From: Cyanophora paradoxa CCMP329
Lineage: Eukaryota; Plantae; Glaucophyta
Assembly: GCA_004431415.1 (NCBI GenBank)
Contig: QPMI01000575.1
Location: 1-64,000, forward strand
Direction: 5' to 3'
DNA length: 64,000 bases
Made by a program: the position numbers and the translations under genes. The notes below the pieces were generated by a model, which did not search any database, was not told the origin of the DNA, and worked only from the letters and a program-made list of their open reading frames with translations. Positions 17,431 to 61,287 of the stretch are shown here, one piece after another (position 1 is the first letter of the stretch; each line of letters begins with the position of its first letter).

Positions 17431-17713
17431 ACACATAGTAAAATGCGGAGTTTTAACCCTCGGCTTATCTTAATTGATTTTGTTGATATATCTCGTATAT
17501 TCTATTTCAATCAATCGATAATCTGTGTATATCTTATCGAATAGTCATTTATTTCGATTATTTTGTATTCTTTTCGATATTTTATCGTAAATTTCTCTTA
17601 TTTTCCGATTAGTCTTACTGAGTCTATCGATAATCTGTATATATTTCCGAATATTATAACTGAATCTCAATTAGATCTTGCCTCTGGTTAAAACTCCGCA
17701 TTTTACTATGTGT
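17431..17713. repeat. Terminal fold-back: 28-bp perfect IR (17431-17458 / 17686-17713) around an AT-rich, partly self-complementary interior; mirrored at 47620-47902
   Basis: ACACATAGTAAAATGCGGAGTTTTAACC and its reverse complement GGTTAAAACTCCGCATTTTACTATGTGT. Confidence 0.92.
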
Positions 17714-18425
17714 GATTGGTCTGTTTGTTAATTGATTTAATCGATATTATATTCATGTACTTTCTCGATTAAATTTAATTAAATTTAATTCATTTAATCG
17801 GAAATATATCGCTAAACTCGATTAAGATCCATAAATGATTCATTTGTTAAATAAAACAAATCGATCTCTTATTGAATCCAATCGTAATTATACATGAAAC
17901 TTATATGTTTTTATCATGTTTTAATGATTCTAAGGGGGGACCCTTAGGATTTTTGAAATAATTGGGTGTGACACATACCATATTCAGTAAGGACCTCTTA
18001 TATTGTGAAAATCTCAGTGTTAGTTGTGTAGTTGATTCAAAAAATGCATTTTATACTCTGATTCATTGTTATTTCCTGTGAAATTTGAGTCAACTCAACC
18101 CACTTAGTCAACCCTTGTATTGAATTCGTAACAAAATCCATATACTATTACTACTTTTACGATTAATATGAGTCAACCTTGAGTCCACTTTAATAATAGG
18201 GGGAATCTTGGGGAGATGTCATTGTAGAAAGCTATTGTAGTAAAATGATATATTATGTCCTTTTGTTACAATAGCTGATCAATGTTATTGTTAGAAAACA
18301 AAGGAATCCTTTCACTGGGATTTTGTTTTTTACGGTTATAAAATTGTATCTGTGGTGCATTTTGTCGAATTGCTTGTATTAAACTGTTTTGCTCTTCTAT
18401 GTATTCGATCGTACTTTTATGTGAA

Positions 18426-18733
18426 GGTTACATTAATGTTTAAAAAGTTACATGGAGTTACGTGATGGGTTACGTAGATATTTTACGATTACTAAGACCA
18501 TTCTCAGTGTTAAAATGGTTGATTTATCGCTATTTTGTCACTGTGAGTTACGGTTACGCAACTTTTTGAATTCTTTCTGAAAATTTGGCTGGGGGTCTTT
18601 TTATAGGTGAAGGTCTAAAACTTGCGTAACCACGTAACTTGCGTAACCTCTACGACATTATGGTGTCATTTCTCTATACTTTTAGGTTACGTAACGTTTT
18701 TACTTACGTAACTTGTGTAACCTTAACGTAACC
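18426..18733. repeat. GTTAC/GTAAC intergenic cassette R1 (copies 26985-27291, 46603-46909)
   Basis: Conserved core GTTACGGTTACGCAACTTTTT...CTTGCGTAACCNCGTAACTTGCGTAACC...GGTTACGTAACG...GTGTAACCTTAACGTAACC. Confidence 0.9.
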
Positions 18734-18810
18734 TTGTTATTCTTACATTTAATCACTGTTATACTATGATATCATGATAACTAAAAATGATACATGATAA
18801 TTGCTTATCT

Positions 18811-19272
18811 TTAACCACGTAGAGATGTTAGATGATCACAATCGAACATCTTAAAGATCTTGCATATCTCATTTTCAGGATCGGTGACATACCATAGACG
18901 GTGTCGCTTATCAAATAAAGCGCCTTGGTTTTTAATGTATTTACGTAATGATGCCTGGGTAAATATACGTTTAGCTTCTATTTCAGGTAGTTTAGTTTTT
19001 ATGTCACCAACGAAATATAGACGTTTCGGGCGATTATGATAATCAGGATCGATAACGATGGGGTTTATTGTAGGAAAGTGCTTTAAGATTCTGTGAAACT
19101 TGTAGCAAACAAACCAATACCCTGTGTCATCATCGAATTTAACGCCACAATCTTTGATATCTAATAGTGATCTGAAACAAGTATTACGGAGGTTGCTTAT
19201 ATCCAACATGTAAGCGCCGTAGTAATGGTGCGGCTCGTTTGTGGTGTTTCCGAAATAAATGAATTGATCCAT
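18811..19272 (-). CDS. 153-aa protein with two DUF5710-like motifs, copy 1
   Basis: IKDCGVKFDDDTGYWFV and IKNQGALFDKRHRLWYV resemble the K..GA.(W/F)D...K.WY motif; AAAATTGA 26 bp upstream. Confidence 0.65.
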   Translation of the reverse strand: MDQFIYFGNTTNEPHHYYGAYMLDISNLRNTCFRSLLDIKDCGVKFDDDTGYWFVCYKFHRILKHFPTINPIVIDPDYHNRPKRLYFVGDIKTKLPEIEAKRIFTQASLRKYIKNQGALFDKRHRLWYVTDPENEICKIFKMFDCDHLTSLRG

Positions 19273-19353
19273 TTGTAATCAGATGTTAAAAAGATTGTCA
19301 ATTTTTCATAAATCCTTCTCTGTAAAGTTTTGGTTAAACAATTGGAAAACTGC

Positions 19354-19672
19354 GGTTACACAACAGTTACACGGCGGTTACACTTGGTTACGCGGGGTTA
19401 CAGGTGAGGTTACGTAGTGATTTTTCGATAAACCACACCATTTTCAGTGTGGTAATCGATAAAAATAACCATTTAGATCCATTGAGGTTACGGTTACGCA
19501 ACTTTTTGAATTCTTTTTAAAAAAATGGCTGGGGGTCTTTTTATAGGTGAAGGTCTAAAACTTGCGTAACCGCGTAACTTGCGTAACCTCACGAGATTTA
19601 TGGTGTCTTTTTGGTATTTTTAAGGTTACGTAACGTTTTTACTTACGTAACCTGTGTAACCTTAACGTAACC
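19354..19672. repeat. GTTAC/GTAAC cassette R2 (copies 27912-28229, 45667-45983)
   Basis: Same core; GTTAC at 19355, 19366, 19377, 19387, 19397 and 19409. Confidence 0.9.
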
Positions 19673-19809
19673 TTATTATAACATCTTAAAAATGTCATCT
19701 GTTATCAAACGGTAGCGGGTGCGATACATAAGATCATGTCACGAGAAGCGATAGGATCCGCTTGTGAAGCGATGAAAAAATGAAGCAAATCTTAAAACTT
19801 AAACAATAA

Positions 19810-20310
19810 GTGAGATACAGCGGAATGTACAATATGAACGCGTCGGATATCCTGACCTACATTAAGAGTATTACCCATATTCCTGTTCTCATCGATGCTG
19901 ACCTATCTTTAAAGAAGGCAAACCCTAACACTATCTGTATTGTGCCGTATGATACTAAACATCGTGCGTATTTCGAAATGTTTCGTAAAAACTTGGGTTA
20001 TTCACCTAATACCCGTTTCGTCTGCTTTCTCACATTAGAGACTCACTATATTCTTGTTCCGGTTCTTACTGAAACATCGTGTAAATCGTTTATCTCTAAG
20101 ATCATCTCTAAATGGTCTATTAACCTACCTGCGCAATCTAATGAAACTAAGGAGTGCGTCATATGCCTTGATGACTGTAAAACTAAAATACAAATGTCTT
20201 GTTTGACATGTTTCGCCAAAATGTGCAACACATGCTTTTTACAGTTGAAGAGATCAGAGAGCTTTAAATGTCCGATCTGTCGTAATGACATAAAGACGCA
20301 ACGTGATTAA
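19810..20310 (+). CDS. RING-finger protein A, copy 1 (ATG start probably 19825 or 19834)
   Basis: CVIC-x11-CLTC-x4-CNTC-x11-CPICR, an all-Cys RING-like pattern. Confidence 0.8.
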   Translation: MRYSGMYNMNASDILTYIKSITHIPVLIDADLSLKKANPNTICIVPYDTKHRAYFEMFRKNLGYSPNTRFVCFLTLETHYILVPVLTETSCKSFISKIISKWSINLPAQSNETKECVICLDDCKTKIQMSCLTCFAKMCNTCFLQLKRSESFKCPICRNDIKTQRD

Positions 20311-20359
20311 TGTAAAAATTGATGGAAGATAAAAGTTTTTCTGAGTGTGCCGCTCTGAC

Positions 20360-20563
20360 ATGAAAGAGAAAATGAATAATGGACATTGGGTAACTTTGGC
20401 GACATTGCATAATAAGAAGATTGAGCTTATCCATCGGGAGGTTGATCTTAAACACACAAAAAGACAAGACCATGAAAGACTACAAAATGTTAAACAGTAT
20501 ATTGATGCAATCGATGTAATGATAGATGTAGTGAATACGATCGCTAAAATTAAGACCATGTGA
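20360..20563 (+). CDS. Small helical hypothetical protein, copy 1
   Basis: Short ORF with AAAATTGA at 20315-20322 upstream. Confidence 0.45.
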   Translation: MKEKMNNGHWVTLATLHNKKIELIHREVDLKHTKRQDHERLQNVKQYIDAIDVMIDVVNTIAKIKTM

Positions 20564-20593
20564 ATTTCATCGATAGCGCAAGCGCTATTTTTA

Positions 20594-20893
20594 TTACTTC
20601 TGTGTGCGGTTTTCAAGCTTCTGCCTCAATCTGAATGTTATAATGCTACCATCATGTCGTGCCTTCCCCCTTTGAATCGCTTTCGATATTTCCCCGGGTG
20701 TGTTCTCATCGAAATCAATGAATCGGGAAACCTTCTTTATAAACTGTCTCTGTAAATATCCGGGTAGTTGGTTGATATTACACCCGTCGTTTTTCTTAAC
20801 AAGGTTCTCGTAAATAATGCTACTGCGGTCATCCTGTGATAAATCGGGATTTTGAAGCTGTTCTATGAAAGCGTCGGGAATCCGTGAAGTCAT
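20594..20893 (-). CDS. 99-aa hypothetical protein, copy 1
   Basis: ATG-initiated ORF, AAAAATGA 32 bp upstream. Confidence 0.6.
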   Translation of the reverse strand: MTSRIPDAFIEQLQNPDLSQDDRSSIIYENLVKKNDGCNINQLPGYLQRQFIKKVSRFIDFDENTPGEISKAIQRGKARHDGSIITFRLRQKLENRTQK

Positions 20894-20938
20894 TGTAGGT
20901 TACACTGTCTATTTTGGCGGGTTGTCATTTTTTGCATC

Positions 20939-21247
20939 GGTTACATAGAGGTTACAAGAAGTTACAGAGGAGTTACGCAACAGGTTACGTAGATATTTTA
21001 CAACTGCAAGACGACTTTCAGTGTTATAATACAGGAGATTTAGTATTTTTAACACTGGCGGTTACGGTTACGCAACTTTTTAAATTCTTTTTAAAAAATG
21101 GCGGGGGGGTCTCTCTCAGATAAAATAGTGAAAACTTGCGTAACCGCGTAACTTGCGTAACCTCTACGACATTATGGTGTCTTTTCTCTGTTATTTTTGG
21201 TTACGTAACGTTTTTATCTACGTAACTTGTGTAACCTTAACGTAACC
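20939..21247. repeat. GTTAC/GTAAC cassette R3 (copies 29496-29804, 44097-44402)
   Basis: Same core; GTTAC at 20940, 20951, 20961, 20972 and 20984. Confidence 0.9.
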
Positions 21248-21273
21248 TTATTATTTAACATTATTCATCTTTA

Positions 21274-21810
21274 TTATCCATTTGCATATAACTTAGGTTC
21301 TAATGCTTCCATTCCGTCAAAAAATAGTTTAGTTCTACAAACTGAACACTTAGCATTCTCATGTGATTCAAGTGAAGAGAGGAAACAATTAGGACAAATA
21401 AGAGTATTGCAAACGATACAGCCTTTATTATTTATGTTAGTGTCAATGTTTTCAAGACAGATAGGACATGTTTCATTCGGACTCTCAAAGTTTTCCCTCG
21501 CGAATGACTTAATAATGATATCTACGAACCATTTGGTGTTCTCCTCATCAAGATATGGGACTAACATGTAACGGTGTTTATATGAGAATGCAAAACGAAT
21601 AGGTTGAAGGGCATGATATCCCGCCTTTTGCTTCCATGCATCAAATACCCCTTTATTCTTGCGGTTCTTTTGAATAAAGTATATAATCTGTCTTTCGTTG
21701 GCTTTCATTAAGAATTTCGTATAATTCTTATCATTCAGTTTATCTGATGCATTGACTATGGGATATGGCGAAATAGACTGTGAAAACGTCAATATATCGT
21801 TTAAATTCAT
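21274..21810 (-). CDS. RING-finger protein B, copy 1 (paralogue of A)
   Basis: CPIC...CIVC...CPNC...CSVCR; N-terminus MNLNDILTFSQSI resembles MNASDILTYIKSI. Confidence 0.8.
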   Translation of the reverse strand: MNLNDILTFSQSISPYPIVNASDKLNDKNYTKFLMKANERQIIYFIQKNRKNKGVFDAWKQKAGYHALQPIRFAFSYKHRYMLVPYLDEENTKWFVDIIIKSFARENFESPNETCPICLENIDTNINNKGCIVCNTLICPNCFLSSLESHENAKCSVCRTKLFFDGMEALEPKLYANG

Positions 21811-21844
21811 TTGGTTGTGCTACTATCTGTTACAGTTTCTTTAA

Positions 21845-22222
21845 TTAGCTTAGAGTTTTTTCAATGTCGAACACTCTTTTGAGAACGCCATCAATTCTTA
21901 CAGCATGTGATTTAATCCCGAAAATGCGCTTAATCACGATTCCGATGGCTGTTTTTGAAATCGGAAAGTCTATAAGCTCTTCTATTTCAGCATGGATTAC
22001 ATCGGAAGGTGTATAATCACCGTCATTACTTAACCTGTAACTATGCATTAAATACGCTTCCACATCAGACATCCCATGTTGATATTCGCCAATCCCATGT
22101 TGATATTCGCCAATCCCATGTTGATATTTGTCCATCCCATGTTGATATTTGCCCATCTCATGTTGATATTCGCCCATTTCCGTTTCATCCATAACAATTT
22201 CGATGTATTCCACGTCTTCCAT
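21845..22222 (-). CDS. 125-aa protein with 7-aa repeats and winged-helix-like C-terminus, copy 1
   Basis: Five 21-bp repeats ((G/D)(E/K)YQH(G/E)(M/I)); C-terminus resembles the C-terminus of the D5 protein. Confidence 0.6.
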   Translation of the reverse strand: MEDVEYIEIVMDETEMGEYQHEMGKYQHGMDKYQHGIGEYQHGIGEYQHGMSDVEAYLMHSYRLSNDGDYTPSDVIHAEIEELIDFPISKTAIGIVIKRIFGIKSHAVRIDGVLKRVFDIEKTLS

Positions 22223-22373
22223 GTTACACTTAACTGTTACATGTTAAAATTTTGTTACAAGTTTTACGGTTGATGTCCAAAAATTGACACTGTAAAACAC
22301 AGAAAGGTATTTAAGGGTTTGACTTAAAAGAGAAGTGAAAGGGAATAATTTCTTACCTTCCATTAGAGAATCA

Positions 22374-22814
22374 ATGGCGAATACTCGGAAATCAAACCAA
22401 GAGCTTATCGCTATTCAGAAAGGCGACCCGTTTGTAGAGATTGGAAAAAAGAAACCTGAGTTATCAATTGAAGAACAGGAAGAAAAGGCAAGGTTGAGAA
22501 GAGAGAAAGACAGGGAAAGAAAACGTGTAGCTTATCAGAAGAAGAAAGAAGAGAGACTCGCAAATGGCGAAAAAACAATACTGACAGCTGAGGAGCTGGA
22601 AAAGAGAGCCATATATTTACGTCGTCGATATGAAGAGGACGCGGAATATAGAAAAAAGAGAATTGAGAGTGCAAACAATTACCTGAAACAGAAAAGGCGT
22701 GAGAAGAAGACGGAGCCAAAACCCAAAGTGCAAACAGTGCCTAAGAAATCGGGAAGACCTCGAAAGTATCCCGACCCGATCACATCTTTATCGGAAAAAA
22801 GCGTAGCGAATTGA
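22374..22814 (+). CDS. Basic K/E/R-rich protein with AT-hook, copy 1
   Basis: KKSGRPRKY; charged helical region; AAAATTGA at 22280-22287. Confidence 0.65.
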   Translation: MANTRKSNQELIAIQKGDPFVEIGKKKPELSIEEQEEKARLRREKDRERKRVAYQKKKEERLANGEKTILTAEELEKRAIYLRRRYEEDAEYRKKRIESANNYLKQKRREKKTEPKPKVQTVPKKSGRPRKYPDPITSLSEKSVAN

Positions 22815-22828
22815 TTGATGGGAGCGCA

Positions 22829-22836
22829 AAAATTGA
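22829..22836 (+). promoter_or_regulatory. AAAATTGA (Mimivirus-type early promoter motif) upstream of primase-helicase; also 22280(+), 20315(+), 19298-19305(-), 36163(+)/37741-37748(-)
   Basis: Exact octamer, correctly oriented 26-233 bp upstream of starts. Confidence 0.6.
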
Positions 22837-22995
22837 CGCTTTACTTTCTCCTTTTTATAACCTAAGCCAAATCATTAAAGTGCCGTGGGCAACCGAAAAG
22901 CATTTAAGGACATCCCGAGAAGATAATTTAAACCTGGGAGTTTCTCACTTCCTCGGATTATTTTCTCTGAGAAATTTAAGAATCAATCGCGAAAA

Positions 22996-25876
22996 ATGAA
23001 TGCTAACACGAAAATCGCAACTCCCTGTGAGAGACTCGGTAACCTGTGCAAATTTACACCTGAGAAACATAATTGGGGTTCTTTCCTACATTGTCTCACT
23101 CCGAATACTGACAGCGAGACTGTCATAGAGTATTTCGACCATCAGATTACGGAAAGGATTAATGATGATTTGAAGAAAGGCAAAAAACCGACCTACGCCG
23201 AATGCATTCAGCCAAACGAAATAACACGTGTCTATCTGGATTATGACGGCTATGTGGATCTTAAACCGGATGTTGCCGATAACTACAAGGAAGCCGATGA
23301 AATCATTCGTGAAATGCGCAAGAGACTACACGAACTCACCGGTGCTACCATTGCTGTGTCCGTGCGTCATCGTCCTATCCATTTCGTTAAGGAAGACGTG
23401 ACCCAATTTAAGGTATCGGGGCATTTCGTCTTTACCGATCTGTGCTGTCGTCATGAAGACATCCCGAAATTCTTAAATGTAATCGGACTTACGCCAAAGG
23501 TGGATTATGACCCACTCGTTTATAAGACAAGGCAGGCGCTTGTTTGTCTGGGTAGTTGCAAGGGTAAATGGTTGGATTCCCAAAACAGACTAAACGCGAT
23601 GTTGATAAGGATGTAGTATTTACCAAATTCGTGGATTGTGAAACCATGTATGACAGCGACTTTTTCGCGCAATTCACGGATTGCCCCACTGTGCTTATCG
23701 ATGAATCAAACATGTATATGTTTGATGCTAACCTAACCCAAGATGAGAAAAACGAACGGTCGGCAAAGGCGGAAGTTGCAAAAGAGCAAATGAAGGAGGA
23801 AGGCAAGACTGAAACCAAGAAGGAGACGACCAAGAAGGAGACGACCAAGAAGGAGACCACAACAAAGAAGAAGGAGACGGCGACGACAAGCAAAAAAACA
23901 ACAAAGAAAACGGAGAGTGAAGAGCAGCCGGAGGAGTCTAATAACGTTTCATTTGAGAAACTGAGAGAAGTCGTGATGGGTCTTAGTGCTGAAAGATCGG
24001 ATACATACGAAGGTTGGCTTAATGTTGGTTTCGCAATCGCGAATGTTGGAGAGGAAAACAATATACCACCCACGAAACAGGAGGCGCTGTTTCACGAATA
24101 CTCCGAGAAAAGCCCTAAGTATGATTATGATGAATGCGCGAACAAATGGATGAGTATCCGCAAAGGCAAAAAATCCGGTTCCGAAAACAAAACTATAACT
24201 TTCGGCTCACTTGTGCATTATCTGAGAGAGGATAACCCGGACACGTATTATGGACTGTTTAAACCAAGCCGACAGTTTGCATTTATCGATGAGGAGGTGT
24301 GTATGGATGAGAATGACTATTCCGATGTTAGCGCCATGAATGATAAGATGGCTCAAATCAAATTAGAAATGGATAAGACGCTATTAAGTCAAGGTCTCCC
24401 ACTTCCTGTTAGCAAGATCTGTAAAGCATTAATTGGCTACAAAGTGCGGTTTTCACGTGGTCTGTGGTTGATCCTGAATGAGAAAACCGGATTTTGGAAG
24501 GTAGATAATAAGTATGATGGTGGTATGATAACTCTTATCGGTGAGGTTGTCGGGAAAGCATACTTAGACCGGGAGAACCATTGGGCTACCAAGGCGGCAA
24601 AGGCGGAGGAACAGAGCGATAAAAAGGAATTCGCAGTAAAGGCAGCCGCCTGTGCAAAAATTGCGCAAAAACTTAACTGTGGAGGTTACACGAAAGGACT
24701 TCTTACATATCTCTCTCATGACCTTTACGATGAGACATTTGCCGATAGGTTGGATTCAGTCGCGAATGTTGTTGGCTTTGACGATGGCGTTTATGATCTT
24801 AACACGTTTGAGTTCCGTAATGGTCGTTCTTCTGATATGATGACTAAGACAGTCTGTTATAACTATGATATTCCGGTGGATCCTGAGAAGGTCAAACGAC
24901 TCAATGACTTCTACATGGATATCACAGGTGACAATGTCGAACTTGCAAGATACATTAAGGCTGTTTATGCCAAGTCTCTAACGGGTAAAAATAACATGCA
25001 GTTTTTCTATATGTTTACGGGTATCGGCTCGAACGGAAAGAGCGTAATCGAAAATTTCATGCATAAGACATTTGGCGACTACTCACGAAATATGAGCATT
25101 GGGATTTTCACGAAGGAGGATAAAGGTAATGGAATGATTCCGGAACTTGCGAATAAGCAAGGTGTTAGGCTCGTCCATACAAACGAACCAAACACGGGTA
25201 GCAAACTGTTGGCGGGACAAATCAAGAATTTCACAGGTTGTGATGAGATCACAGTAAGAACCCTTTTCAAAGAACCAATTTCATTTGCTCCGATGTTTGT
25301 TATCGTCATCCTCTGTAATAATAACCTCGAATTTGATCAGCCCGACAATGCAGTAGCGCGCCGCTTCCGTTCTGTTCCATTTCAGCAGGTCTATGCCGTC
25401 GAACCTAAGCCCGGACAGAAGAAAGCGGATAAAGACCTTACCGGGTTGTTGAATCCCGATAATGACGTAAATGGTGAATGGCGCAGGGCAAACATGGAGA
25501 TTCTCATAGACATGCTTAAAAACCATGATGTTAATCATATAATCGACCATCCGCCCAATGCATCCTCGAACATTCCGCTAATTATCTCGCGGACAGCGAC
25601 CGTATCGGCACATTCCTAAGGGACAACTACGCTTTGGCGGAGGATAACACGAAATACATAATATGTGACGATCTGTTTAAGGATTGCTCAAATACGATGA
25701 GAGATGTTGATAGAAGAGCAGCGATAACAGGACGAGCTGTAAGCAATAAGGTGATGGAGGTGTTTAAGATCGGCTCGACTGTAAAAAAGGTTGGTGGAAA
25801 ATCGAAGCGTGTTTATCTCGGTCTCACAAAGAACCGCGCTAACGATTTTGAAGACGATGACGAAGATGTGGAATAA
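22996..25876 (+). CDS. AEP primase-PriCT-2-D5/SF3 helicase, copy 1 (two 1-bp frameshifts)
   Basis: YLDYDG, KVSGHFVF (AEP motifs); YEGWLNVGFAI..SEKSPKYD..ECANKW (PriCT-2); GFDDGVYDL (D5_N); Walker A GIGSNGKS; AVARRF. Confidence 0.9.
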
Positions 25877-27368
25877 AACTTATTGGAAAATATACTATTG
25901 ATATCTTTTTTATGATCATGAACCGTAAGACTCGGTTCTTAATAGAAGGTTACTTTAAGGTTTCTCGGAGTTACTCGGAGTTACTCAGAGAGGTTACGTA
26001 GCGGTTCCGTTAATTTGTTACCATTTTCAGTATTGATATACCGAATTTCTCTTTATTTCACAGCTGTGAGTTACGGTTACGCAACTTTTTGAATTCTTTC
26101 TGAAAATTTGGAGGGGGTCTTTTATAGGTGAAGGTCTAAAACTTGCGTAACCGCGTAACTTGCGTAACCTCTGCGTAACTTGCGTATCGATAATCTGTAT
26201 ATATTTCCGAATATTATAACTGAATCTCAATTAGATCTTGCCTCTGGTTAAAACTCCGCATTTTACTATGTGTGATTGGTCTGTTTGTTAATTGATTTAA
26301 TCGATATTATATTCATGTACTTTCTCGATTAAATTTAATTAAATTTAATTCATTTAATCGGAAATATATCGCTAAACTCGATTAAGATCCATAAATGATT
26401 CATTTGTTAAATAAAACAAATCGATCTCTTATTGAATCCAATCGTAATTATACATGAAACTTATATGTTTTTATCATGTTTTAATGATTCTAAGGGGGAC
26501 CCTTAGGATTTTTGAAATAATTGGGTGTGACACATACCATATTCAGTAAGGACCTCTTATATTGTGAAAATCTCAGTGTTAGTTGTGTAGTTGATTCAAA
26601 AAATGCATTTTATACTCTGATTCATTGTTATTTCCTGTGAAATTTGAGTCAACTCAACCCACTTAGTCAACCCTTGTATTGAATTCGTAACAAAATCCAT
26701 ATACTATTACTACTTTTACGATTAATATGAGTCAACCTTGAGTCCACTTTAATAATAGGGGGAATCTTGGGGAGATGTCATTGTAGAAAGCTATTGTAGT
26801 AAAATGATATATTATGTCCTTTTGTTACAATAGCTGATCAATGTTATTGTTAGAAAACAAAGGAATCCTTTCACTGGGATTTTGTTTTTTACGGTTATAA
26901 AATTGTATCTGTGGTGCATTTTGTCGAATTGCTTGTATTAAACTGTTTTGCTCTTCTATGTATTCGATCGTACTTTTATGTGAAGGTTACATTAATGTTT
27001 AAAAAGTTACATGGAGTTACGTGATGGGTTACGTAGATATTTTACGATTACTAAGACCATTCTCAGTGTTAAAATGGTTGATTTATCGCTATTTTGTCAC
27101 TGTGAGTTACGGTTACGCAACTTTTTGAATTCTTTCTGAAAATTTGGCTGGGGTCTTTTTATAGGTGAAGGTCTAAAACTTGCGTAACCACGTAACTTGC
27201 GTAACCTCTACGACATTATGGTGTCATTTCTCTATACTTTTAGGTTACGTAACGTTTTTACTTACGTAACTTGTGTAACCTTAACGTAACCTTGTTATTC
27301 TTACATTTAATCACTGTTATACTATGATATCATGATAACTAAAAATGATACATGATAATTGCTTATCT

Positions 27369-27830
27369 TTAACCACGTAGAGATGTTAGATGATCACAAT
27401 CGAACATCTTAAAGATCTTGCATATCTCATTTTCAGGATCGGTGACATACCATAGACGGTGTCGCTTATCAAATAAAGCGCCTTGGTTTTTAATGTATTT
27501 ACGTAATGATGCCTGGGTAAATATACGTTTAGCTTCTATTTCAGGTAGTTTAGTTTTTATGTCACCAACGAAATATAGACGTTTCGGGCGATTATGATAA
27601 TCAGGATCGATAACGATGGGGTTTATTGTAGGAAAGTGCTTTAAGATTCTGTGAAACTTGTAGCAAACAAACCAATACCCTGTGTCATCATCGAATTTAA
27701 CGCCACAATCTTTGATATCTAATAGTGATCTGAAACAAGTATTACGGAGGTTGCTTATATCCAACATGTAAGCGCCGTAGTAATGGTGCGGCTCGTTTGT
27801 GGTGTTTCCGAAATAAATGAATTGATCCAT
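27369..27830 (-). CDS. DUF5710-like protein, copy 2
   Basis: Identical translation to 18811-19272. Confidence 0.65.
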   Translation of the reverse strand: MDQFIYFGNTTNEPHHYYGAYMLDISNLRNTCFRSLLDIKDCGVKFDDDTGYWFVCYKFHRILKHFPTINPIVIDPDYHNRPKRLYFVGDIKTKLPEIEAKRIFTQASLRKYIKNQGALFDKRHRLWYVTDPENEICKIFKMFDCDHLTSLRG

Positions 27831-30366: not shown

Positions 30367-30400
30367 TTGGTTGTGCTACTATCTGTTACAGTTTCTTTAA

Positions 30401-35182: not shown

Positions 35183-35246
35183 CACGCTGAATAATATAAA
35201 AAACAATTGTAACGCATGATTAATAGAAACAAAAAAAACATTTAAA

Positions 35247-39470: not shown

Positions 39471-42351
39471 TTATTCCACATCTTCGTCATCGTCTTCAAA
39501 ATCGTTAGCGCGGTTCTTTGTGAGACCGAGATAAACACGCTTCGATTTTCCACCAACCTTTTTTACAGTCGAGCCGATCTTAAACACCTCCATCACCTTA
39601 TTGCTTACAGCTCGTCCTGTTATCGCTGCTCTTCTATCAACATCTCTCATCGTATTTGAGCAATCCTTAAACAGATCGTCACATATTATGTATTTCGTGT
39701 TATCCTCCGCCAAAGCGTAGTTGTCCCTTAGGAATGTGCCGATACGGTCGCTGTCCGCGAGATAATTAGCGGAATGTTCGAGGATGCATTGGGGCGGATG
39801 GTCGATTATATGATTAACATCATGGTTTTTAAGCATGTCTATGAGAATCTCCATGTTTGCCCTGCGCCATTCACCATTTACGTCATTATCGGGATTCAAC
39901 AACCCGGTAAGGTCTTTATCCGCTTTCTTCTGTCCGGGCTTAGGTTCGACGGCATAGACCTGCTGAAATGGAACAGAACGGAAGCGGCGCGCTACTGCAT
40001 TGTCGGGCTGATCAAATTCGAGGTTATTATTACAGAGGATGACGATAACAAACATCGGAGCAAATGAAATTGGTTCTTTGAAAAGGTTCTTACTGTGATC
40101 TCATCACAACCTGTGAAATTCTTGATTTGTCCCGCCAACAGTTTGCTACCCGTGTTTGGTTCGTTTGTATGGACGAGCCTAACACCTTGCTTATTCGCAA
40201 GTTCCGGAATCATTCCATTACCTTTATCCTCCTTCGTGAAAATCCCAATGCTCATATTTCGTGAGTAGTCGCCAAATGTCTTATGCATGAAATTTTCGAT
40301 TACGCTCTTTCCGTTCGAGCCGATACCCGTAAACATATAGAAAAACTGCATGTTATTTTTACCCGTTAGAGACTTGGCATAAACAGCCTTAATGTATCTT
40401 GCAAGTTCGACATTGTCACCTGTGATATCCATGTAGAAGTCATTGAGTCGTTTGACCTTCTCAGGATCCACCGGAATATCATAGTTATAACAGACTGTCT
40501 TAGTCATCATATCAGAAGAACGACCATTACGGAACTCAAACGTGTTAAGATCATAAACGCCATCGTCAAAGCCAACAACATTCGCGACTGAATCCAACCT
40601 ATCGGCAAATGTCTCATCGTAAAGGTCATGAGAGAGATATGTAAGAAGTCCTTTCGTGTAACCTCCACAGTTAAGTTTTTGCGCAATTTTTGCACAGGCG
40701 GCTGCCTTTACTGCGAATTCCTTTTTATCGCTCTGTTCCTCCGCCTTTGCCGCCTTGGTAGCCCAATGGTTCTCCCGGTCTAAGTATGCTTTCCCGACAA
40801 CCTCACCGATAAGAGTTATCATACCACCATCATACTTATTATCTACCTTCCAAAATCCGGTTTTCTCATTCAGGATCAACCACAGACCACGTGAAAACCG
40901 CACTTTGTAGCCAATTAATGCTTTACAGATCTTGCTAACAGGAAGTGGGAGACCTTGACTTAATAGCGTCTTATCCATTTCTAATTTGATTTGAGCCATC
41001 TTATCATTCATGGCGCTAACATCGGAATAGTCATTCTCATCCATACACACCTCCTCATCGATAAATGCAAACTGTCGGCTTGGTTTAAACAGTCCATAAT
41101 ACGTGTCCGGGTTATCCTCTCTCAGATAATGCACAAGTGAGCCGAAAGTTATAGTTTTGTTTTCGGAACCGGATTTTTTGCCTTTGCGGATACTCATCCA
41201 TTTGTTCGCGCATTCATCATAATCATACTTAGGGCTTTTCTCGGAGTATTCGTGAAACAGCGCCTCCTGTTTCGTGGGTGGTATATTGTTTTCCTCTCCA
41301 ACATTCGCGATTGCGAAACCAACATTAAGCCAACCTTCGTATGTATCCGATCTTTCAGCACTAAGACCCATCACGACTTCTCTCAGTTTCTCAAATGAAA
41401 CGTTATTAGACTCCTCCGGCTGCTCTTCACTCTCCGTTTTCTTTGTTGTTTTTTTGCTTGTCGTCGCCGTCTCCTTCTTCTTTGTTGTGGTCTCCTTCTT
41501 GGTCGTCTCCTTCTTGGTCGTCTCCTTCTTGGTTTCAGTCTTGCCTTCCTCCTTCATTTGCTCTTTTGCAACTTCCGCCTTTGCCGACCGTTCGTTTTTC
41601 TCATCTTGGGTTAGGTTAGCATCAAACATATACATGTTTGATTCATCGATAAGCACAGTGGGGCAATCCGTGAATTGCGCGAAAAAGTCGCTGTCATACA
41701 TGGTTTCACAATCCACGAATTTGGTAAATACTACATCCTTATCAACATCGCGTTTAGTCTTGTTTTGGGAATCCAACCATTTACCCTTGCAACTACCCAG
41801 ACAAACAAGCGCCTGCCTTGTCTTATAAACGAGTGGGTCATAATCCACCTTTGGCGTAAGTCCGATTACATTTAAGAATTTCGGGATGTCTTCATGACGA
41901 CAGCACAGATCGGTAAAGACGAAATGCCCGATACCTTAAATTGGGTCACGTCTTCCTTAACGAAATGGATAGGACGATGACGCACGGACACAGCAATGGT
42001 AGCACCGGTGAGTTCGTGTAGTCTCTTGCGCATTTCACGAATGATTTCATCGGCTTCCTTGTAGTTATCGGCAACATCCGGTTTAAGATCCACATAGCCG
42101 TCATAATCCAGATAGACACGTGTTATTTCGTTTGGCTGAATGCATTCGGCGTAGGTCGGTTTTTTGCCTTTCTTCAAATCATCATTAATCCTTTCCGTAA
42201 TCTGATGGTCGAAATACTCTATGACAGTCTCGCTGTCAGTATTCGGAGTGAGACAATGTAGGAAAGAACCCCAATTATGTTTCTCAGGTGTAAATTTGCA
42301 CAGGTTACCGAGTCTCTCACAGGGAGTTGCGATTTTCGTGTTAGCATTCAT
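39471..42351 (-). CDS. AEP primase-PriCT-2-D5/SF3 helicase, copy 3 (two 1-bp frameshifts)
   Basis: Reverse complement of copies 1 and 2; frameshifts fall at different homopolymers. Confidence 0.9.
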
Positions 42352-42532
42352 TTTTCGCGATTGATTCTTAAATTTCTCAGAGAAAATAATCCGAGGAAGT
42401 GAGAAACTCCCAGGTTTAAATTATCTTCTCGGGATGTCCTTAAATGCTTTTCGGTTGCCCACGGCACTTTAATGATTTGGCTTAGGTTATAAAAAGGAGA
42501 AAGTAAAGCGTCAATTTTTGCGCTCCCATCAA

Positions 42533-42971
42533 TCAATTCGCTACGCTTTTTCCGATAAAGATGTGATCGGGTCGGGATACTTTCGAGGTCTTCCGATTTC
42601 TTAGGCACTGTTTGCACTTTGGGTTTTGGCTCCGTCTTCTTCTCACGCCTTTTCTGTTTCAGGTAATTGTTTGCACTCTCAATTCTCTTTTTTCTATATT
42701 CCGCGTCCTCTTCATATCGACGACGTAAATATATGGCTCTCTTTTCCAGCTCCTCAGCTGTCAGTATTGTTTTTTCGCCATTTGCGAGTCTCTCTTCTTT
42801 CTTCTTCTGATAAGCTACACGTTTTCTTTCCCTGTCTTTCTCTCTTCTCAACCTTGCCTTTTCTTCCTGTTCTTCAATTGATAACTCAGGTTTCTTTTTT
42901 CCAATCTCTACAAACGGGTCGCCTTTCTGAATAGCGATAAGCTCTTGGTTTGATTTCCGAGTATTCGCCAT
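42533..42971 (-). CDS. AT-hook basic protein, copy 3 (frameshift near end)
   Basis: Mirror of 22374-22814. Confidence 0.6.
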
Positions 42972-43122
42972 TGATTCTCTAATGGAAGGTAAGAAATTAT
43001 TCCCTTTCACTTCTCTTTTAAGTCAAACCCTTAAATACCTTTCTGTGTTTTACAGTGTCAATTTTTGGACATCAACCGTAAAACTTGTAACAAAATTTTA
43101 ACATGTAACAGTTAAGTGTAAC

Positions 43123-43500
43123 ATGGAAGACGTGGAATACATCGAAATTGTTATGGATGAAACGGAAATGGGCGAATATCAACATGAGATGGGCAAATAT
43201 CAACATGGGATGGACAAATATCAACATGGGATTGGCGAATATCAACATGGGATTGGCGAATATCAACATGGGATGTCTGATGTGGAAGCGTATTTAATGC
43301 ATAGTTACAGGTTAAGTAATGACGGTGATTATACACCTTCCGATGTAATCCATGCTGAAATAGAAGAGCTTATAGACTTTCCGATTTCAAAAACAGCCAT
43401 CGGAATCGTGATTAAGCGCATTTTCGGGATTAAATCACATGCTGTAAGAATTGATGGCGTTCTCAAAAGAGTGTTCGACATTGAAAAAACTCTAAGCTAA
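43123..43500 (+). CDS. Repeat/winged-helix-like protein, copy 3
   Basis: Identical translation to copy 1. Confidence 0.6.
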   Translation: MEDVEYIEIVMDETEMGEYQHEMGKYQHGMDKYQHGIGEYQHGIGEYQHGMSDVEAYLMHSYRLSNDGDYTPSDVIHAEIEELIDFPISKTAIGIVIKRIFGIKSHAVRIDGVLKRVFDIEKTLS

Positions 43501-43534
43501 TTAAAGAAACTGTAACAGATAGTAGCACAACCAA

Positions 43535-44070
43535 ATGAATTTAAACGATATATTGACGTTTTCACAGTCTATTTCGCCATATCCCATAGTCAATGCATCA
43601 GATAAACTGAATGATAAGAATTATACGAAATTCTTAATGAAAGCCAACGAAAGACAGATTATATACTTTATTCAAAAGAACCGCAAGAATAAAGGGTATT
43701 TGATGCATGGAAGCAAAAGGCGGGATATCATGCCCTTCAACCTATTCGTTTTGCATTCTCATATAAACACCGTTACATGTTAGTCCCATATCTTGATGAG
43801 GAGAACACCAAATGGTTCGTAGATATCATTATTAAGTCATTCGCGAGGGAAAACTTTGAGAGTCCGAATGAAACATGTCCTATCTGTCTTGAAAACATTG
43901 ACACTAACATAAATAATAAAGGCTGTATCGTTTGCAATACTCTTATTTGTCCTAATTGTTTCCTCTCTTCACTTGAATCACATGAGAATGCTAAGTGTTC
44001 AGTTTGTAGAACTAAACTATTTTTTGACGGAATGGAAGCATTAGAACCTAAGTTATATGCAAATGGATAA
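43535..44070 (+). CDS. RING-finger protein B, copy 3 (1-bp frameshift)
   Basis: Mirror of 21274-21810. Confidence 0.75.
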
Positions 44071-44447
44071 TAAAGATGAATAATGTTAAATAATAAGGTT
44101 ACGTTAAGGTTACACAAGTTACGTAGATAAAAACGTTACGTAACCAAAATAACAGAGAAAAGACACCATAATGTCGTAGAGGTTACGCAAGTTACGCGGT
44201 TACGCAAGTTTTCACTATTTTATCTGAGAGAGACCCCCCGCCATTTTTAAAAAGAATTTAAAAAGTTGCGTAACCGTAACCGCCAGTGTTAAAAATACTA
44301 AATCTCCTGTATTATAACACTGAAAGTCGTCTTGCAGTTGTAAAATATCTACGTAACCTGTTGCGTAACTCCTCTGTAACTTCTTGTAACCTCTATGTAA
44401 CCGATGCAAAAAATGACAACCCGCCAAAATAGACAGTGTAACCTACA

Positions 44448-44745
44448 ATGACTTCACGGATTCCCGACGCTTTCATAGAACAGCTTCAAAATCCCGATTT
44501 ATCACAGGATGACCGCAGTAGCATTATTTACGAGAACCTTGTTAAGAAAAACGACGGGTGTAATATCAACCAACTACCCGGATATTTACAGAGACAGTTT
44601 ATAAAGAAGGTTTCCCGATTCATTGATTTCGATGAGAACACACCGGGGAAATATCGAAAGCGATTCAAAGGGGAAGGCACGACATGATGGTAGCATTATA
44701 ACATTCAGATTGAGGCAGAAGCTTGAAAACCGCACACAGAAGTAA
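44448..44745 (+). CDS. 99-aa hypothetical protein, copy 3 (frameshifted)
   Basis: Mirror of 20594-20893. Confidence 0.5.
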
Positions 44746-45028
44746 TAAAAATAGCGCTTGCGCTATCGATGAAATTCACATGGTCTTAATTTTAGCGATC
44801 GTATTCACTACATCTATCATTACATCGATTGCATCAATATACTGTTTAACATTTTGTAGTCTTTCATGGTCTTGTCTTTTTGTGTGTTTAAGATCAACCT
44901 CCCGATGGATAAGCTCAATCTTCTTATTATGCAATGTCGCCAAAGTTACCCAATGTCCATTATTCATTTTCTCTTTCATGTCAGAGCGGCACACTCAGAA
45001 AAACTTTTATCTTCCATCAATTTTTACA

Positions 45029-45529
45029 TTAATCACGTTGCGTCTTTATGTCATTACGACAGATCGGACATTTAAAGCTCTCTGATCTCTTCAACTGTAA
45101 ATAGCATGTGTTGCACATTTTGGCGAAACATGTCAAACAAGACATTTGTATTTTAGTTTTACAGTCATCAAGGCATATGACGCACTCCTTAGTTTCATTA
45201 GATTGCGCAGGTAGGTTAATAGACCATTTAGAGATGATCTTAGAGATAAACGATTTACACGATGTTTCAGTAAGAACCGGAACAAGAATATAGTGAGTCT
45301 CTAATGTGAGAAAGCAGACGAAACGGGTATTAGGTGAATAACCCAAGTTTTTACGAAACATTTCGAAATACGCACGATGTTTAGTATCATACGGCACAAT
45401 ACAGATAGTGTTAGGGTTTGCCTTCTTTAAAGATAGGTCAGCATCGATGAGAACAGGAATATGGGTAATACTCTTAATGTAGGTCAGGATATCCGACGCG
45501 TTCATATTGTACATTCCGCTGTATCTCAC
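45029..45529 (-). CDS. RING-finger protein A, copy 3 (one F>Y substitution)
   Basis: CNTCYLQ versus CNTCFLQ. Confidence 0.8.
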   Translation of the reverse strand: MRYSGMYNMNASDILTYIKSITHIPVLIDADLSLKKANPNTICIVPYDTKHRAYFEMFRKNLGYSPNTRFVCFLTLETHYILVPVLTETSCKSFISKIISKWSINLPAQSNETKECVICLDDCKTKIQMSCLTCFAKMCNTCYLQLKRSESFKCPICRNDIKTQRD

Positions 45530-46064
45530 TTATTGTTTAAGTTTTAAGATTTGCTTCATTTTTTCATCGCTTCACAAGCGGATCCTATCGCTTCTCGTGA
45601 CATGATCTTATGTATCGCACCCGCTACCGTTTGATAACAGATGACATTTTTAAGATGTTATAATAAGGTTACGTTAAGGTTACACAGGTTACGTAAGTAA
45701 AAACGTTACGTAACCTTAAAAATACCAAAAAGACACCATAAATCTCGTGAGGTTACGCAAGTTACGCGGTTACGCAAGTTTTAGACCTTCACCTATAAAA
45801 AGACCCCAGCCATTTTTTTAAAAGAATTCAAAAAGTTGCGTAACCGTAACCTCAATGGATCTAAATGGTTATTTTTATCGATTACCACACTGAAAATGGT
45901 GTGGTTTATCGAAAAATCACTACGTAACCTCACCTGTAACCCCGCGTAACCAAGTGTAACCGCCGTGTAACTGTTGTGTAACCGCAGTTTTCCAATTGTT
46001 TAACCAAAACTTTACAGAGAAGGATTTATGAAAAATTGACAATCTTTTTAACATCTGATTACAA

Positions 46065-46525
46065 ATGGATCAATTCATTTATTTCGGAAACACCACAAAC
46101 GAGCCGCACCATTACTACGGCGCTTACATGTTGGATATAAGCAACCTCCGTAATACTTGTTTCAGATCACTATTAGATATCAAAGATTGTGGCGTTAAAT
46201 TCGATGATGACACAGGGTATTGGTTTGTTTGCTACAAGTTTCACAGAATCTTAAAGCACTTTCCTACAATAAACCCATCGTTATCGATCCTGATTATCAT
46301 AATCGCCCGAAACGTCTATATTTCGTTGGTGACATAAAAACTAAACTACCTGAAATAGAAGCTAAACGTATATTTACCCAGGCATCATTACGTAAATACA
46401 TTAAAAACCAAGGCGCTTTATTTGATAAGCGACACCGTCTATGGTATGTCACCGATCCTGAAAATGAGATATGCAAGATCTTTAAGATGTTCGATTGTGA
46501 TCATCTAACATCTCTACGTGGTTAA
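46065..46525 (+). CDS. DUF5710-like protein, copy 3 (1-bp frameshift)
   Basis: Mirror of 18811-19272. Confidence 0.6.
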
Positions 46526-48687
46526 AGATAAGCAATTATCATGTATCATTTTTAGTTATCATGATATCATAGTATAACAGTGATTAAATGTAAGAATAAC
46601 AAGGTTACGTTAAGGTTACACAAGTTACGTAAGTAAAAACGTTACGTAACCTAAAAGTATAGAGAAATGACACCATAATGTCGTAGAGGTTACGCAAGTT
46701 ACGTGGTTACGCAAGTTTTAGACCTTCACCTATAAAAAGACCCCAGCCAAATTTTCAGAAAGAATTCAAAAAGTTGCGTAACCGTAACTCACAGTGACAA
46801 AATAGCGATAAATCAACCATTTTAACACTGAGAATGGTCTTAGTAATCGTAAAATATCTACGTAACCCATCACGTAACTCCATGTAACTTTTTAAACATT
46901 AATGTAACCTTCACATAAAAGTACGATCGAATACATAGAAGAGCAAAACAGTTTAATACAAGCAATTCGACAAAATGCACCACAGATACAATTTTATAAC
47001 CGTAAAAAACAAAATCCCAGTGAAAGGATTCCTTTGTTTTCTAACAATAACATTGATCAGCTATTGTAACAAAAGGACATAATATATCATTTTACTACAA
47101 TAGCTTTCTACAATGACATCTCCCCAAGATTCCCCTATTATTAAAGTGGACTCAAGGTTGACTCATATTAATCGTAAAAGTAGTAATAGTATATGGATTT
47201 TGTTACGAATTCAATACAAGGGTTGACTAAGTGGGTTGAGTTGACTCAAATTTCACAGGAAATAACAATGAATCAGAGTATAAAATGCATTTTTTGAATC
47301 AACTACACAACTAACACTGAGATTTTCACAATATAAGAGGTCCTTACTGAATATGGTATGTGTCACACCCAATTATTTCAAAAATCCTAAGGGTCCCCCT
47401 TAGAATCATTAAAACATGATAAAAACATATAAGTTTCATGTATAATTACGATTGGATTCAATAAGAGATCGATTTGTTTTATTTAACAAATGAATCATTT
47501 ATGGATCTTAATCGAGTTTAGCGATATATTTCCGATTAAATGAATTAAATTTAATTAAATTTAATCGAGAAAGTACATGAATATAATATCGATTAAATCA
47601 ATTAACAAACAGACCAATCACACATAGTAAAATGCGGAGTTTTAACCAGAGGCAAGATCTAATTGAGATTCAGTTATAATATTCGGAAATATATACAGAT
47701 TATCGATAGACTCAGTAAGACTAATCGGAAAATAAGAGAAATTTACGATAAAATATCGAAAAGAATACAAAATAATCGAAATAAATGAATATTCGATAAG
47801 ATATACACAGATTATCGATTGATTGAAATAGAATATACGAGATATATCAACAAAATCAATTAAGATAAGCCGAGGGTTAAAACTCCGCATTTTACTATGT
47901 GTTGCTCACACCGCCACAGGGTCAGGAGCACAAACGAAAGACGGCACTAGCCTCGAACGACATCAGATGGTTTGGAGCGTCCCCCGCCCCACCCGACGCG
48001 TGAAGCTGTGCTCGACCTCCCGTTGTCCCCTCCAAAACTCCAGCATCCGACGATGATGCGTACAGATGCCTCTTCCAGACGATGGTGCGCCTGGAAGGAC
48101 CCGACGCTAAGCCTCACTGGCCTCAGTCCGCGACGATGATGCGCCGCGGACGCCCTGCTCCGAGCGATGGTGCGCTCGAGCTCGCTCCGACGTCGAGTAC
48201 CAAGGGACGCCGCACTTGGATTTCGAATTTTGCCACCTGCGGTGACGAGACGTTGAGCCCGCGTCCGTCTGATGCAGGTCCGACCCGGTCACGTTCGGAT
48301 GGACGACGACCTCGGGCCCTCCCGGCCCTCAACCGCCGTACGTCCCCCGTCCCACCCAGCTGTCACAGGCGCCCTCCTCGACCCGTCCTGATCAGGGCCC
48401 GGGCAGGTCCGCGCCTCGGCTGTGGACGCCGGTCCACCGGACATAATCGGCACGACGCCTCCTTTCTTCCCGAAGGCAGGCCGTCGTCGGCACCGGTGCT
48501 TCTCCTTTCTGTCCCGAAAGCAAGCAAGCACCACTTCAACGTTGCAGATTGCAAATTGCAAAACCAACGAATATTCACAGCTGACTCCGCGCGCCCTTGC
48601 TTGCGAAGCTGCAGCTGACACCCCACGCCATCTCGCGCTGGCCTTTTCGAACTGGCGGAGACCTAACCGCCAAGAAAATGTTCGAAG

Positions 48688-61243: not shown

Positions 61244-61287
<44 letters not shown>

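What the first reader, a model, noticed from the sequence alone, without database searches (positions are those of the whole stretch)
17431..47902. Giant palindromic, capsid-less and integrase-less primase-helicase element integrated with a 6-bp TSD
Seen: clean ends, TSD TGCTCA, ~10.3-kb inverted arms around only 1.2 kb of unique DNA, and a gene set limited to an AEP-D5 primase-helicase, RING, AT-hook and small proteins, and one nuclease. No rve integrase, tyrosine recombinase, pPolB, capsid, ATPase or protease was recognised. Known: Polintons/Mavericks and mavirus-type virophages integrate with ~6-bp TSDs through their own retroviral-type integrase and usually have much shorter TIRs; transpovirons are capsid-less linear parasites of giant viruses but use an SF1 helicase. 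Inference: this is either a new class of non-autonomous self-replicating satellite, or a snap-back defective genome of a Polinton-like virus integrated in trans. The precise TSD implies the palindromic molecule existed before insertion.
Basis: partly seen in the sequence, partly recalled or inferred. Interest (0 to 1): 0.95.

Follow-up and report, generated by a model that had tools for sequence, protein, structure and literature searches.

The report
Mirror-image satellite of endogenous virophages
A 22-kb mobile element made of two mirror-image halves around one nuclease gene sits cleanly inserted in a eukaryotic genome; it carries a replication enzyme but no capsid or integrase, and is likely a fold-back offshoot that would borrow those functions from a large family of virus-like elements sharing its ends.

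Summary
Real, but not as measured and probably not a new class. The 30.5-kb span holds a 21.9-kb palindrome (10.35-kb arms, 1.2-kb centre that is exactly one nuclease gene) plus an unreported 8.56-kb tandem duplication of the left arm. Short-read contigs support both centre junctions, the exact end and an empty site, so the 6-bp TSD holds. Only the outer ~0.88 kb of each arm is high-copy: it is the TIR of an abundant family in this host. A neighbouring fibre-encoding element ends in a homologous terminal palindrome. The AEP-D5 primase-helicase groups weakly with virophage enzymes. No capsid, ATPase, protease or integrase fits the ORFs. Each arm has four ~350-bp palindromic repeats. Best reading (0.6): a fold-back copy of the replication end of an endogenous virophage/PLV, of near-normal genome length, integrated in trans. 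The TSD does not prove the palindrome pre-dated insertion. Arm identity and the duplication need long reads, because sister arm alleles exist. This scan already noted palindromic Polinton satellites in animal genomes (unchecked notes); this would be a primase-helicase version in a probable protist. My paper searches found no description.

The parts
16486..16960 (.). LTR (TG...CA, 475 bp) of the host gag-only LTR retroelement; 4-bp TSD ATAC
   Evidence: 100% identical to 50865-51339
17425..17430 (.). left TSD copy TGCTCA
   Evidence: single copy at an empty site in 4 of 4 runs
17431..18310 (+). left family TIR (~880 bp, non-coding), high-copy in the host
   Evidence: mirror of 47023-47902, where summed contig depth rises to 157-211x the centre
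17431..17713 (.). terminal palindrome: 28-bp arms (17431-17458, 17686-17713) around a 227-nt loop
   Evidence: fold z -9.6
17431..26172 (+). copy C1: outer 8.74 kb of the arm (extra tandem copy)
18415..18775 (.). intergenic palindromic GTTAC/GTAAC repeat 1 of 4 per arm (others 19361-19705, 20928-21274, 25945-26172 cut, and 34500-34856 whole); candidate origins or recombination sites (inferred)
   Evidence: 70-85% alike; fold z -3.95
18811..19272 (-). 153-aa ORF with weak DUF5710 match
   Evidence: Pfam E 5e-5, below cut-off
19825..20310 (+). 161-aa RING-finger ORF
   Evidence: Pfam E 2e-5, below cut-off
20594..20893 (-). 99-aa ORF, no family
21274..21810 (-). 178-aa RING-finger ORF
   Evidence: Pfam E 1e-3
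21845..22222 (-). 125-aa ORF with 21-bp tandem repeats
22374..22814 (+). 146-aa basic ORF with an AT-hook-like GRPRK motif (motif name recalled)
   Evidence: no Pfam hit
22996..25880 (+). AEP-PriCT2-D5/SF3 primase-helicase, copy 1 (frameshifted as assembled)
26173..26184 (.). 12-bp junction insert copied from 20 bp upstream, joining repeat 4 to the loop of the terminal palindrome
   Evidence: not tested in reads
26185..36355 (+). copy C2: left arm without its outermost 194 bp
   Evidence: 99.7% to C3
31551..34432 (+). primase-helicase, copy 2 (in two frames as assembled)
34958..36191 (.). inner-arm small ORFs: 74 aa (+), 105 aa (+), 169 aa (-); no relatives found
36356..37555 (-). unique centre: one intact nuclease gene (four zinc-finger repeats plus a PD-(D/E)XK-like end read by eye), from 47 bp before its likely start to 7 A after its stop
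   Evidence: PHROG 559 E 2e-90; Pfam DUF4379
37556..47902 (-). copy C3: complete right arm, 10,347 bp
47023..47902 (-). right family TIR with terminal palindrome (47620-47647, 47875-47902)
47903..47908 (.). right TSD copy TGCTCA
48688..49952 (-). gag-like ORF with a CCHC knuckle (read by eye) of the host LTR element; no pol seen
   Evidence: no Pfam family
50865..51339 (.). second LTR of the host element
1..4587 (+). right end of a second AT-rich virus-like element (C1q fibre genes, SAM decarboxylase, relic of the same nuclease family) with a homologous terminal palindrome at 4520-4587; likely a member of the parent or helper family

Best explanation
The element is a 21.9-kb mirror-image molecule with a 6-bp target duplication and ends shared with a high-copy family, and it is likely a fold-back copy of the replication end of an endogenous virophage or Polinton-like virus that would need full-length relatives to integrate and be packaged. 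Shown: two arms around one nuclease gene; the exact end; an empty site; a ~0.88-kb high-copy TIR ending in a palindrome; an AEP-D5 primase-helicase with primase and helicase motifs; no room for capsid or integrase. Inferred steps: (1) the parent was a ~20-kb provirus with hairpin-forming ends and its replication module at one end; (2) during replication a strand copied that end up to the nuclease gene, switched template and copied the same 10.35 kb back out, giving two functional ends and a length near that of normal virophages, so still packageable; (3) its own primase-helicase, acting at the terminal palindromes or the four internal repeats, would let it replicate beside a helper; (4) an rve-type integrase from a relative inserted it with a 6-bp stagger into a young LTR element; (5) a separate template switch, or the assembler, added the 8.56-kb duplication.
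For: Architecture and TSD. Centre joined to arm sequence on both sides in 4 of 4 runs from 3 samples. Empty site in 4 of 4 runs, three other flanks joined to the same end, and the terminal 60-mer at 42x centre depth in X13. Depth rises from 3-5x to 157-211x in the outer ~880 bp, so most holders of these ends carry other cargo. A loose end at 47023 in 4 of 4 runs equals window 4120-4143 in the fibre-encoding neighbour, and that neighbour's terminal palindrome aligns with this one. The helicase lies on a 21-row side (SH-aLRT 98) with six capsid-bearing virophage contigs and 14 unlabelled proteins, apart from the side holding the other viral contigs, mostly giant-virus ones. TIRs of median 0.9 kb and genomes of median 19.8 kb in EMALEs (PMC8547959, passages). 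Terminal palindromes beside TSDs go with non-pPolB replicases, and gene-poor copies keep TIR and TSD (10.64898/2026.07.28.741278, sections 5 and 7). rve integrase typically gives 6-bp TSDs (PMC12220804, passages).
Against: No helper with integrase or capsid was seen: no genome is held and the neighbour is cut by the window edge. The tree is a quick one on 50 rows that I chose, the window branch is long (1.62), and the 101-row tree gave no supported set. In the runs the window's allele at 42466-42948 has only 0.8-1.2x the centre's depth beside other alleles, and the inner arm has 3.1-3.6x rather than 2x. That does not fit three identical copies per centre unless the centre is itself multi-copy or the strain differs. 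No listed contig bridges this site's own left junction, and in X9 the two listed flank contigs account for all depth at 17408-17419. A centre that is exactly one gene could equally be a homing nuclease that entered the axis of an older perfect palindrome. Activity was not tested.
Confidence: 0.6

Rival explanations
1. A normal virophage/PLV integrated first; a break was then repaired inside the chromosome by priming from the right TIR on the left TIR, replacing capsid and integrase genes with a mirror copy of the left end while keeping both ends and the TSD.
For: The TSD only dates the ends. The 8.56-kb duplication with a templated 12-bp insert, if real, shows template switching at this locus. 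The centre's depth is close to that of flank contigs in X13 and X20, compatible with one locus.
Against: The host LTRs are still identical, leaving little time. Diverged sister arm alleles exist. The product has near-normal virophage length.
Confidence: 0.15
2. The long, near-identical arms are partly an assembly product: the true palindrome is shorter or its arms are diverged mosaics, homogenised and duplicated by long-read correction.
For: Window allele at ~1x centre depth in one arm segment, with a 405-bp variant at similar depth; patches of clustered differences in contigs. Copies differ almost only by homopolymer indels.
Against: Both centre junctions are in short-read contigs. The listed arm contigs stay at 3-5x the centre except one segment, whose bin sums to about 2.6-3.4x. 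The flanks are collinear halves of one LTR element with an exact TSD.
Confidence: 0.12
3. An independent new class of mobile element with its own ends and an unrecognised integrase among the small ORFs, unrelated to the host's endogenous viruses.
For: The 169-aa ORF has no relative among 23 candidates. The replicase has at most 38% identity to anything listed. Single-sequence folds were uninformative, so hidden folds are not excluded.
Against: The ends are shared with a far more abundant family and with a fibre-encoding neighbour. All unexplained ORFs are under 180 aa.
Confidence: 0.07
4. A composite transposon bounded by two 283-bp MITE-like units with 28-bp inverted repeats, moved by a host DDE transposase.
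For: Each end is a 283-bp unit with its own perfect 28-bp inverted repeat, and the ends are high-copy.
Against: No target duplication at the inner side of the unit. The high-copy region runs ~600 bp beyond it. The neighbour has the homologous palindrome with a loop of only a few bases.
Confidence: 0.04

Closest known systems
Endogenous virophages and PLV subtype 4 of Halocafeteria seosinensis with terminal palindromes (bioRxiv 10.64898/2026.07.28.741278; passages and sections 5 and 7 read; supplements not seen)
   Same: Palindromes inside the TIR next to the TSD; non-pPolB replicase such as D5 primase-helicase; RING and endonuclease genes; TIR ~0.8 kb; AT-rich against the host; gene-poor copies that keep TIR and TSD
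   Different: Complete ones encode capsid and rve integrase. No whole-element mirror duplication is described in what I read. The palindrome here has 28-bp arms with a 227-nt loop rather than a 52-nt palindrome.
EMALEs (endogenous mavirus-like virophages) of Cafeteria burkhardae (PMC8547959; passages)
   Same: TIRs 0.2-2.3 kb (median 0.9), length median 19.8 kb, short TSDs, primase/helicase in the replication module, truncated copies
   Different: Unique interior with capsid module and rve integrase; TSDs mostly 3-5 bp; no 10-kb mirror arms
Mavericks/Polintons (PMC8097293; passages)
   Same: 6-bp TSD; short repeated end motif, including an AC-type 5'-(AC)3A in Monopterus albus
   Different: Defined by pPolB and integrase, both absent here; this end is (AC)2AT
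Palindromic non-autonomous Polintons in animal genomes noted by this scan (e1-8072377, e1-7883520, e1-8073239, e1-7857165; AI notes, not checked)
   Same: Mirror-image copy of one end of a virus-like element, helper-dependent
   Different: Reported from animals with Polinton ends, gene-less or with pPolB or IAP cargo, often in large families; here an AEP-D5 replicase, a 1.2-kb gene spacer and only a few copies
ITR expansion in vaccinia MVA-CR19 (PMC11680203; passages)
   Same: One terminus copied to the other end so that a long region is mirrored (10 to 27 kb); works-like analogy
   Different: Keeps the essential core and does not integrate
Transpovirons (features recalled)
   Same: Capsid-less linear parasites with TIRs and their own helicase
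   Different: SF1 helicase and ~7 kb, not palindromic; here an SF3 primase-helicase

Membership tests
Virophages (Maveriviricetes) | Major and minor capsid, packaging ATPase, protease genes | tested here: not met
   No tblastn hit (E<=1) of a virophage MCP, mCP or protease in the window; ATPase not searched by query, but no family hit and no spare ORF above 229 codons
Virophages (Maveriviricetes) | Replicase related to virophage primase-helicases | tested here: inconclusive
   On a 21-row side with six capsid-bearing contigs, SH-aLRT 98, long branch, quick tree; no supported set
Endogenous virophages / PLVs | TIR of hundreds of bp, short TSD, lower GC than the host | tested here: met
   ~880-bp high-copy TIR, 6-bp TSD, GC 38% against 63% in the flank
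Polinton-like viruses | Double jelly-roll MCP and ATPase | tested here: not met
   No ORF of sufficient length and no hit; no PLV capsid profile was available
Polintons/Mavericks | pPolB and rve integrase | tested here: not met
Polintons/Mavericks | 6-bp TSD | tested here: met
Polintons/Mavericks | Repeated 6-bp end motif | tested here: inconclusive
   End reads (AC)2AT; the published AC type is (AC)3A
Terminal-palindrome virophages/PLVs (H. seosinensis type) | Palindrome in the TIR next to the TSD, with a non-pPolB replicase | tested here: met
Terminal-palindrome virophages/PLVs (H. seosinensis type) | Own rve integrase and capsid module | tested here: not met
Transpovirons | SF1 helicase (recalled) | tested here: not met
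   D5/SF3 helicase
Helper-dependent satellite | Replication, packaging or integration by a helper in trans | not testable with these tools
   No genome; no experiment
Helper-dependent satellite | Several independent insertions of the same palindromic form | tested here: inconclusive
   Sister arm alleles at 3-5x the centre, sites unknown

The most novel reading that the evidence does not exclude
A self-propagating lineage of palindromic satellites of endogenous virophages: hairpin-ended, genome-length mirror molecules that replicate with their own primase-helicase from repeated internal origins, swap gene cassettes at those repeats, and steal capsid and integrase from sister proviruses. Fold-back satellites would then be a general product of the whole Polinton/PLV/virophage group whatever the replicase, and invisible to capsid-based surveys.
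Probability: 0.3. Interest if true: 0.8.

Novelty: new variant of a known kind. Interest (0 to 1): 0.6.

Why it matters
How virophages and PLVs without a protein-primed polymerase copy their ends is open; a hairpin-priming model was proposed but awaits experiment (10.64898/2026.07.28.741278). A natural fold-back product with intact ends and replicase records strand switching in such a system and marks the cis elements that may suffice: the TIR, the terminal palindrome and the internal repeats. It would also be a parasite of a parasite in hosts where such proviruses are thought to act in antiviral defence. Current surveys would miss it: one starts from capsid genes (PMC10120064), another keeps only TIRs up to 8 kb and inserts of 6 kb or more (PMC12220804). 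If it is a one-off defective copy, its value is mainly as that mechanistic record.

Tried and rejected
No whole genome is held, so copies and helpers could not be listed. Terminal motif scans gave 0 hits in viral contigs and 0 in prokaryote genomes. The 1 hit in metagenomes is a bare match inside a giant-virus-like contig and is rejected as chance. The internal-repeat 16-mer gave 21 viral loci, none alike beyond the word. The replicase alone found no viral locus; the neighbour's 251-aa ORF found none among 30 stretches and 810 candidates; the 169-aa ORF found none among 23. The nuclease has 88 relatives among 95 stretches (27-46% identity in the 80 kept). None of those 80 loci carries the small genes, the replicase or a virophage capsid, and only 4 have inverted repeats of 150 bp or more, all 73-82% alike and so unlike these arms. 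Single-sequence folds of the 169-aa and 153-aa ORFs had pLDDT 36 and 39 and were not searched. The ESM Atlas gave no answer. No RNA holder was listed, which says nothing on expression. Bridging of this site's own junctions was not shown; contigs may drop such links, so this is not counted as absence. TSD readings of 4 or 2 bp are rejected by contig starts at 17431. Of ten paper searches, eight sought this form or its relatives and listed no title or abstract describing a wholly palindromic virophage/PLV derivative; two sought fold-back analogies. Subscription papers, Repbase entries and the supplements of the papers read were not seen and may bear on this.


Full report
OBSERVATION. Self-comparison shows three arm copies, not two. 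C1 is 17431-26172. After a 12-bp insert, C2 (26185-36355) repeats 17625-26172 directly at 99.9% and continues. A 1,200-bp centre follows (36356-37555), then C3 (37556-47902), a complete 10,347-bp inverted arm. The minimal element is 21,894 bp and the span 30,472 bp. TGCTCA flanks both ends. The element is 38% GC inside 63% GC DNA. It interrupts an LTR retroelement with identical 475-bp LTRs, its own 4-bp TSD and a gag-like ORF but no visible pol, so the insertion is young. Differences between copies are 54 pairwise indels, 53 in homopolymer runs, and 8 pairwise substitutions. Every replicase copy is frameshifted at such places, which I read as sequencing error (inference).

INDEPENDENT DATA. 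No genome is held. Twenty of 24 listed runs, from 19 studies of one coded organism, hold 0.80-0.83 of the words of 27600-37555; one may be the window's source. In 4 of 4 runs laid (3 samples) the centre is a single 1,260-bp contig with 30 arm letters at each end and 0, 0, 0 and 2 differences. That is one letter short of the tool's bridging bar, but it is what a 31-letter-word graph gives for a unique stretch between two inverted copies (word length assumed). At the left end, 4 of 4 runs show an empty site: one TGCTCA followed by the right flank with one mismatch in 24, possibly a sister LTR copy. Seven of 32 listed pieces start exactly at 17431, and three different long flanks join the same end among the 24 loose ends shown (8 not shown). 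So the end and the 6-bp TSD are right, and the end is used at other sites.

WHAT THE DEPTHS SAY. The tool warns that depth is no copy number, so these are rough. Arm interior runs at 3.0-5.0x the centre, the bin 46964-47377 at 157-211x, and the terminal 60-mer alone at 42x in X13. The family TIR is thus about 880 bp (from 47023), and most holders of it carry other cargo. Against a simple picture: the window's allele at 42466-42948 has only 0.8-1.2x the centre's depth, a variant skipping or replacing 405 bp has the same, and contigs show patches of clustered differences. Either these cultures differ from the window's strain, the centre is multi-copy, or the assembly homogenised diverged arms. 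No listed contig bridges this site's own junction, and the tandem junction was not tested.

GENES. Each arm encodes an AEP-PriCT2-D5/SF3 primase-helicase (Pfam PriCT_2, D5_N, DUF5906). Its N-terminus has the three primase motifs by eye. It scores 24.2 bits on a 14-sequence profile against 7.2 for the best of 200 shuffles, and 13.4 against 4.4 on a 125-sequence profile; the small profile includes one sequence chosen for its match. There are two RING proteins, a weak DUF5710 protein and small ORFs without family. The centre is one nuclease gene from 47 bp before its likely start to 7 A after its stop, of a family common in viral contigs. Gaps between ORFs and repeats are under 200 bp outside the TIR, and no other stop-free stretch exceeds 229 codons, so no capsid or pPolB can hide and an integrase is unlikely.

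CIS FEATURES. Each end is a 283-bp palindrome with perfect 28-bp arms. Four ~350-bp repeats per arm, 70-85% alike and rich in GTTAC then GTAAC, separate the gene blocks. One of them lies just downstream of the replicase, and the duplication joins it to the loop of the terminal palindrome through a locally templated 12-mer. That they are origins or recombination sites is inference.

RELATIVES. The best of 1.84 billion representatives reach 26-38% identity. Nine of 159 loci carry a capsid like that of L141, which matches PDB capsid protein V20 at E 1e-32 (that this is Sputnik's is recalled), beside a replicase of the same architecture. I built a quick tree of 50 rows: the window, 24 of 159 proteins, 6 capsid-bearing loci and 19 other loci (L104 dropped, no ORF extracted). 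It puts the window on a 21-row side with those virophages and 14 unlabelled proteins (SH-aLRT 98), apart from the other viral contigs. The branch is long, and an earlier 101-row tree without the virophages gave no supported set. Closer evidence lies in the window. Bases 1-4587 are the right end of another 38%-GC element with C1q fibre genes, a SAM decarboxylase and a relic of the same nuclease family. It ends in a perfect 27-bp-arm palindrome that aligns with this element's terminal motifs and shares a 57-bp subterminal block at 86%. A loose end at 47023 in 4 of 4 runs equals its bases 4120-4143, so some elements join this TIR to neighbour-type interior. No capsid or integrase of a helper was seen.

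MECHANISM. Most likely (0.6) a replicating virophage/PLV genome was copied from one end to the nuclease gene, switched template and copied that end again. This gave two working ends and 21.9 kb, between the 19.8 kb median of EMALEs and the 24.6 kb mean of H. seosinensis virophages. An rve-type integrase from a relative then inserted it; rve typically leaves 6 bp, and integration without an own integrase has been suggested for a PLV (PMC11296320, passages and first part of section 9). All these steps are inferred. Rivals: repair after insertion (0.15), which the TSD cannot exclude; assembly homogenisation (0.12); an independent class (0.07); a MITE-bounded composite (0.04). The duplication is a separate question; I put its being an assembly error near one in three.

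COMPARISON. It works like a defective or satellite genome of terminal-palindrome virophages, and its mirroring resembles ITR expansion in vaccinia CR19. It fails membership of virophages, PLVs, Polintons and transpovirons on gene content. Papers were seen as passages or the named sections only (also PMC10120064; 10.1101/2025.10.09.676808; PMC8097293), and no supplements were seen. My searches listed no description of this form. This scan's notes hold 101 findings with the words palindromic and Polinton in at least 14 genomes, 8 shown, six of them mirror-image Polinton derivatives in animals; they are unchecked and not evidence. The host is a GC-rich eukaryote, probably a protist (inference from composition; not established).

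VERDICT. A real palindromic, capsid-less insertion, and a new variant of a known kind. Interest 0.6; 0.8 if it proves to be a propagating satellite lineage (probability 0.3).

Noticed in passing
window 1-4587: Right end of a second AT-rich virus-like element: two C1q fibre ORFs, ORFs sharing a short repeated motif, a SAM decarboxylase, a nuclease relic and a near-loopless terminal palindrome (4520-4587) whose outer arm lacks the last 2 bp; many frames are broken as assembled.
   Followed up: partly
window 5215-11375: Satellite array of 35.6 copies of a 170-bp unit, 90% alike.
   Followed up: no
window 16486-51339: Young gag-only LTR retroelement (~4.4 kb without the insert, identical LTRs, TSD ATAC); several diverged sister copies appear in the runs.
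   Followed up: partly
window 52146-53115: ~970-bp element with 25-bp inverted ends and subterminal repeats, MITE-like.
   Followed up: no
window 13720-14123: ~400-bp element with perfect 17-bp inverted ends and internal palindromes, MITE-like.
   Followed up: no
window 57100-63000: Host gene region of 70-84% GC with a Q/P-rich reading frame and a coiled-coil stretch; no Pfam family.
   Followed up: no
L135, L138, L139, L141-L143, L145, L146, L154: Virophage contigs with a V20-like capsid beside an AEP-PriCT2-D5 primase-helicase of the same architecture as the window's.
   Followed up: partly
window 38431-46436 (table 5): Contigs that skip 92, 297, 405, 5190 or 6428 bp of the arm; the two longest join one intergenic repeat to another and may be cassette deletions in sister elements or cross-mapping of the repeats.
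   Followed up: no
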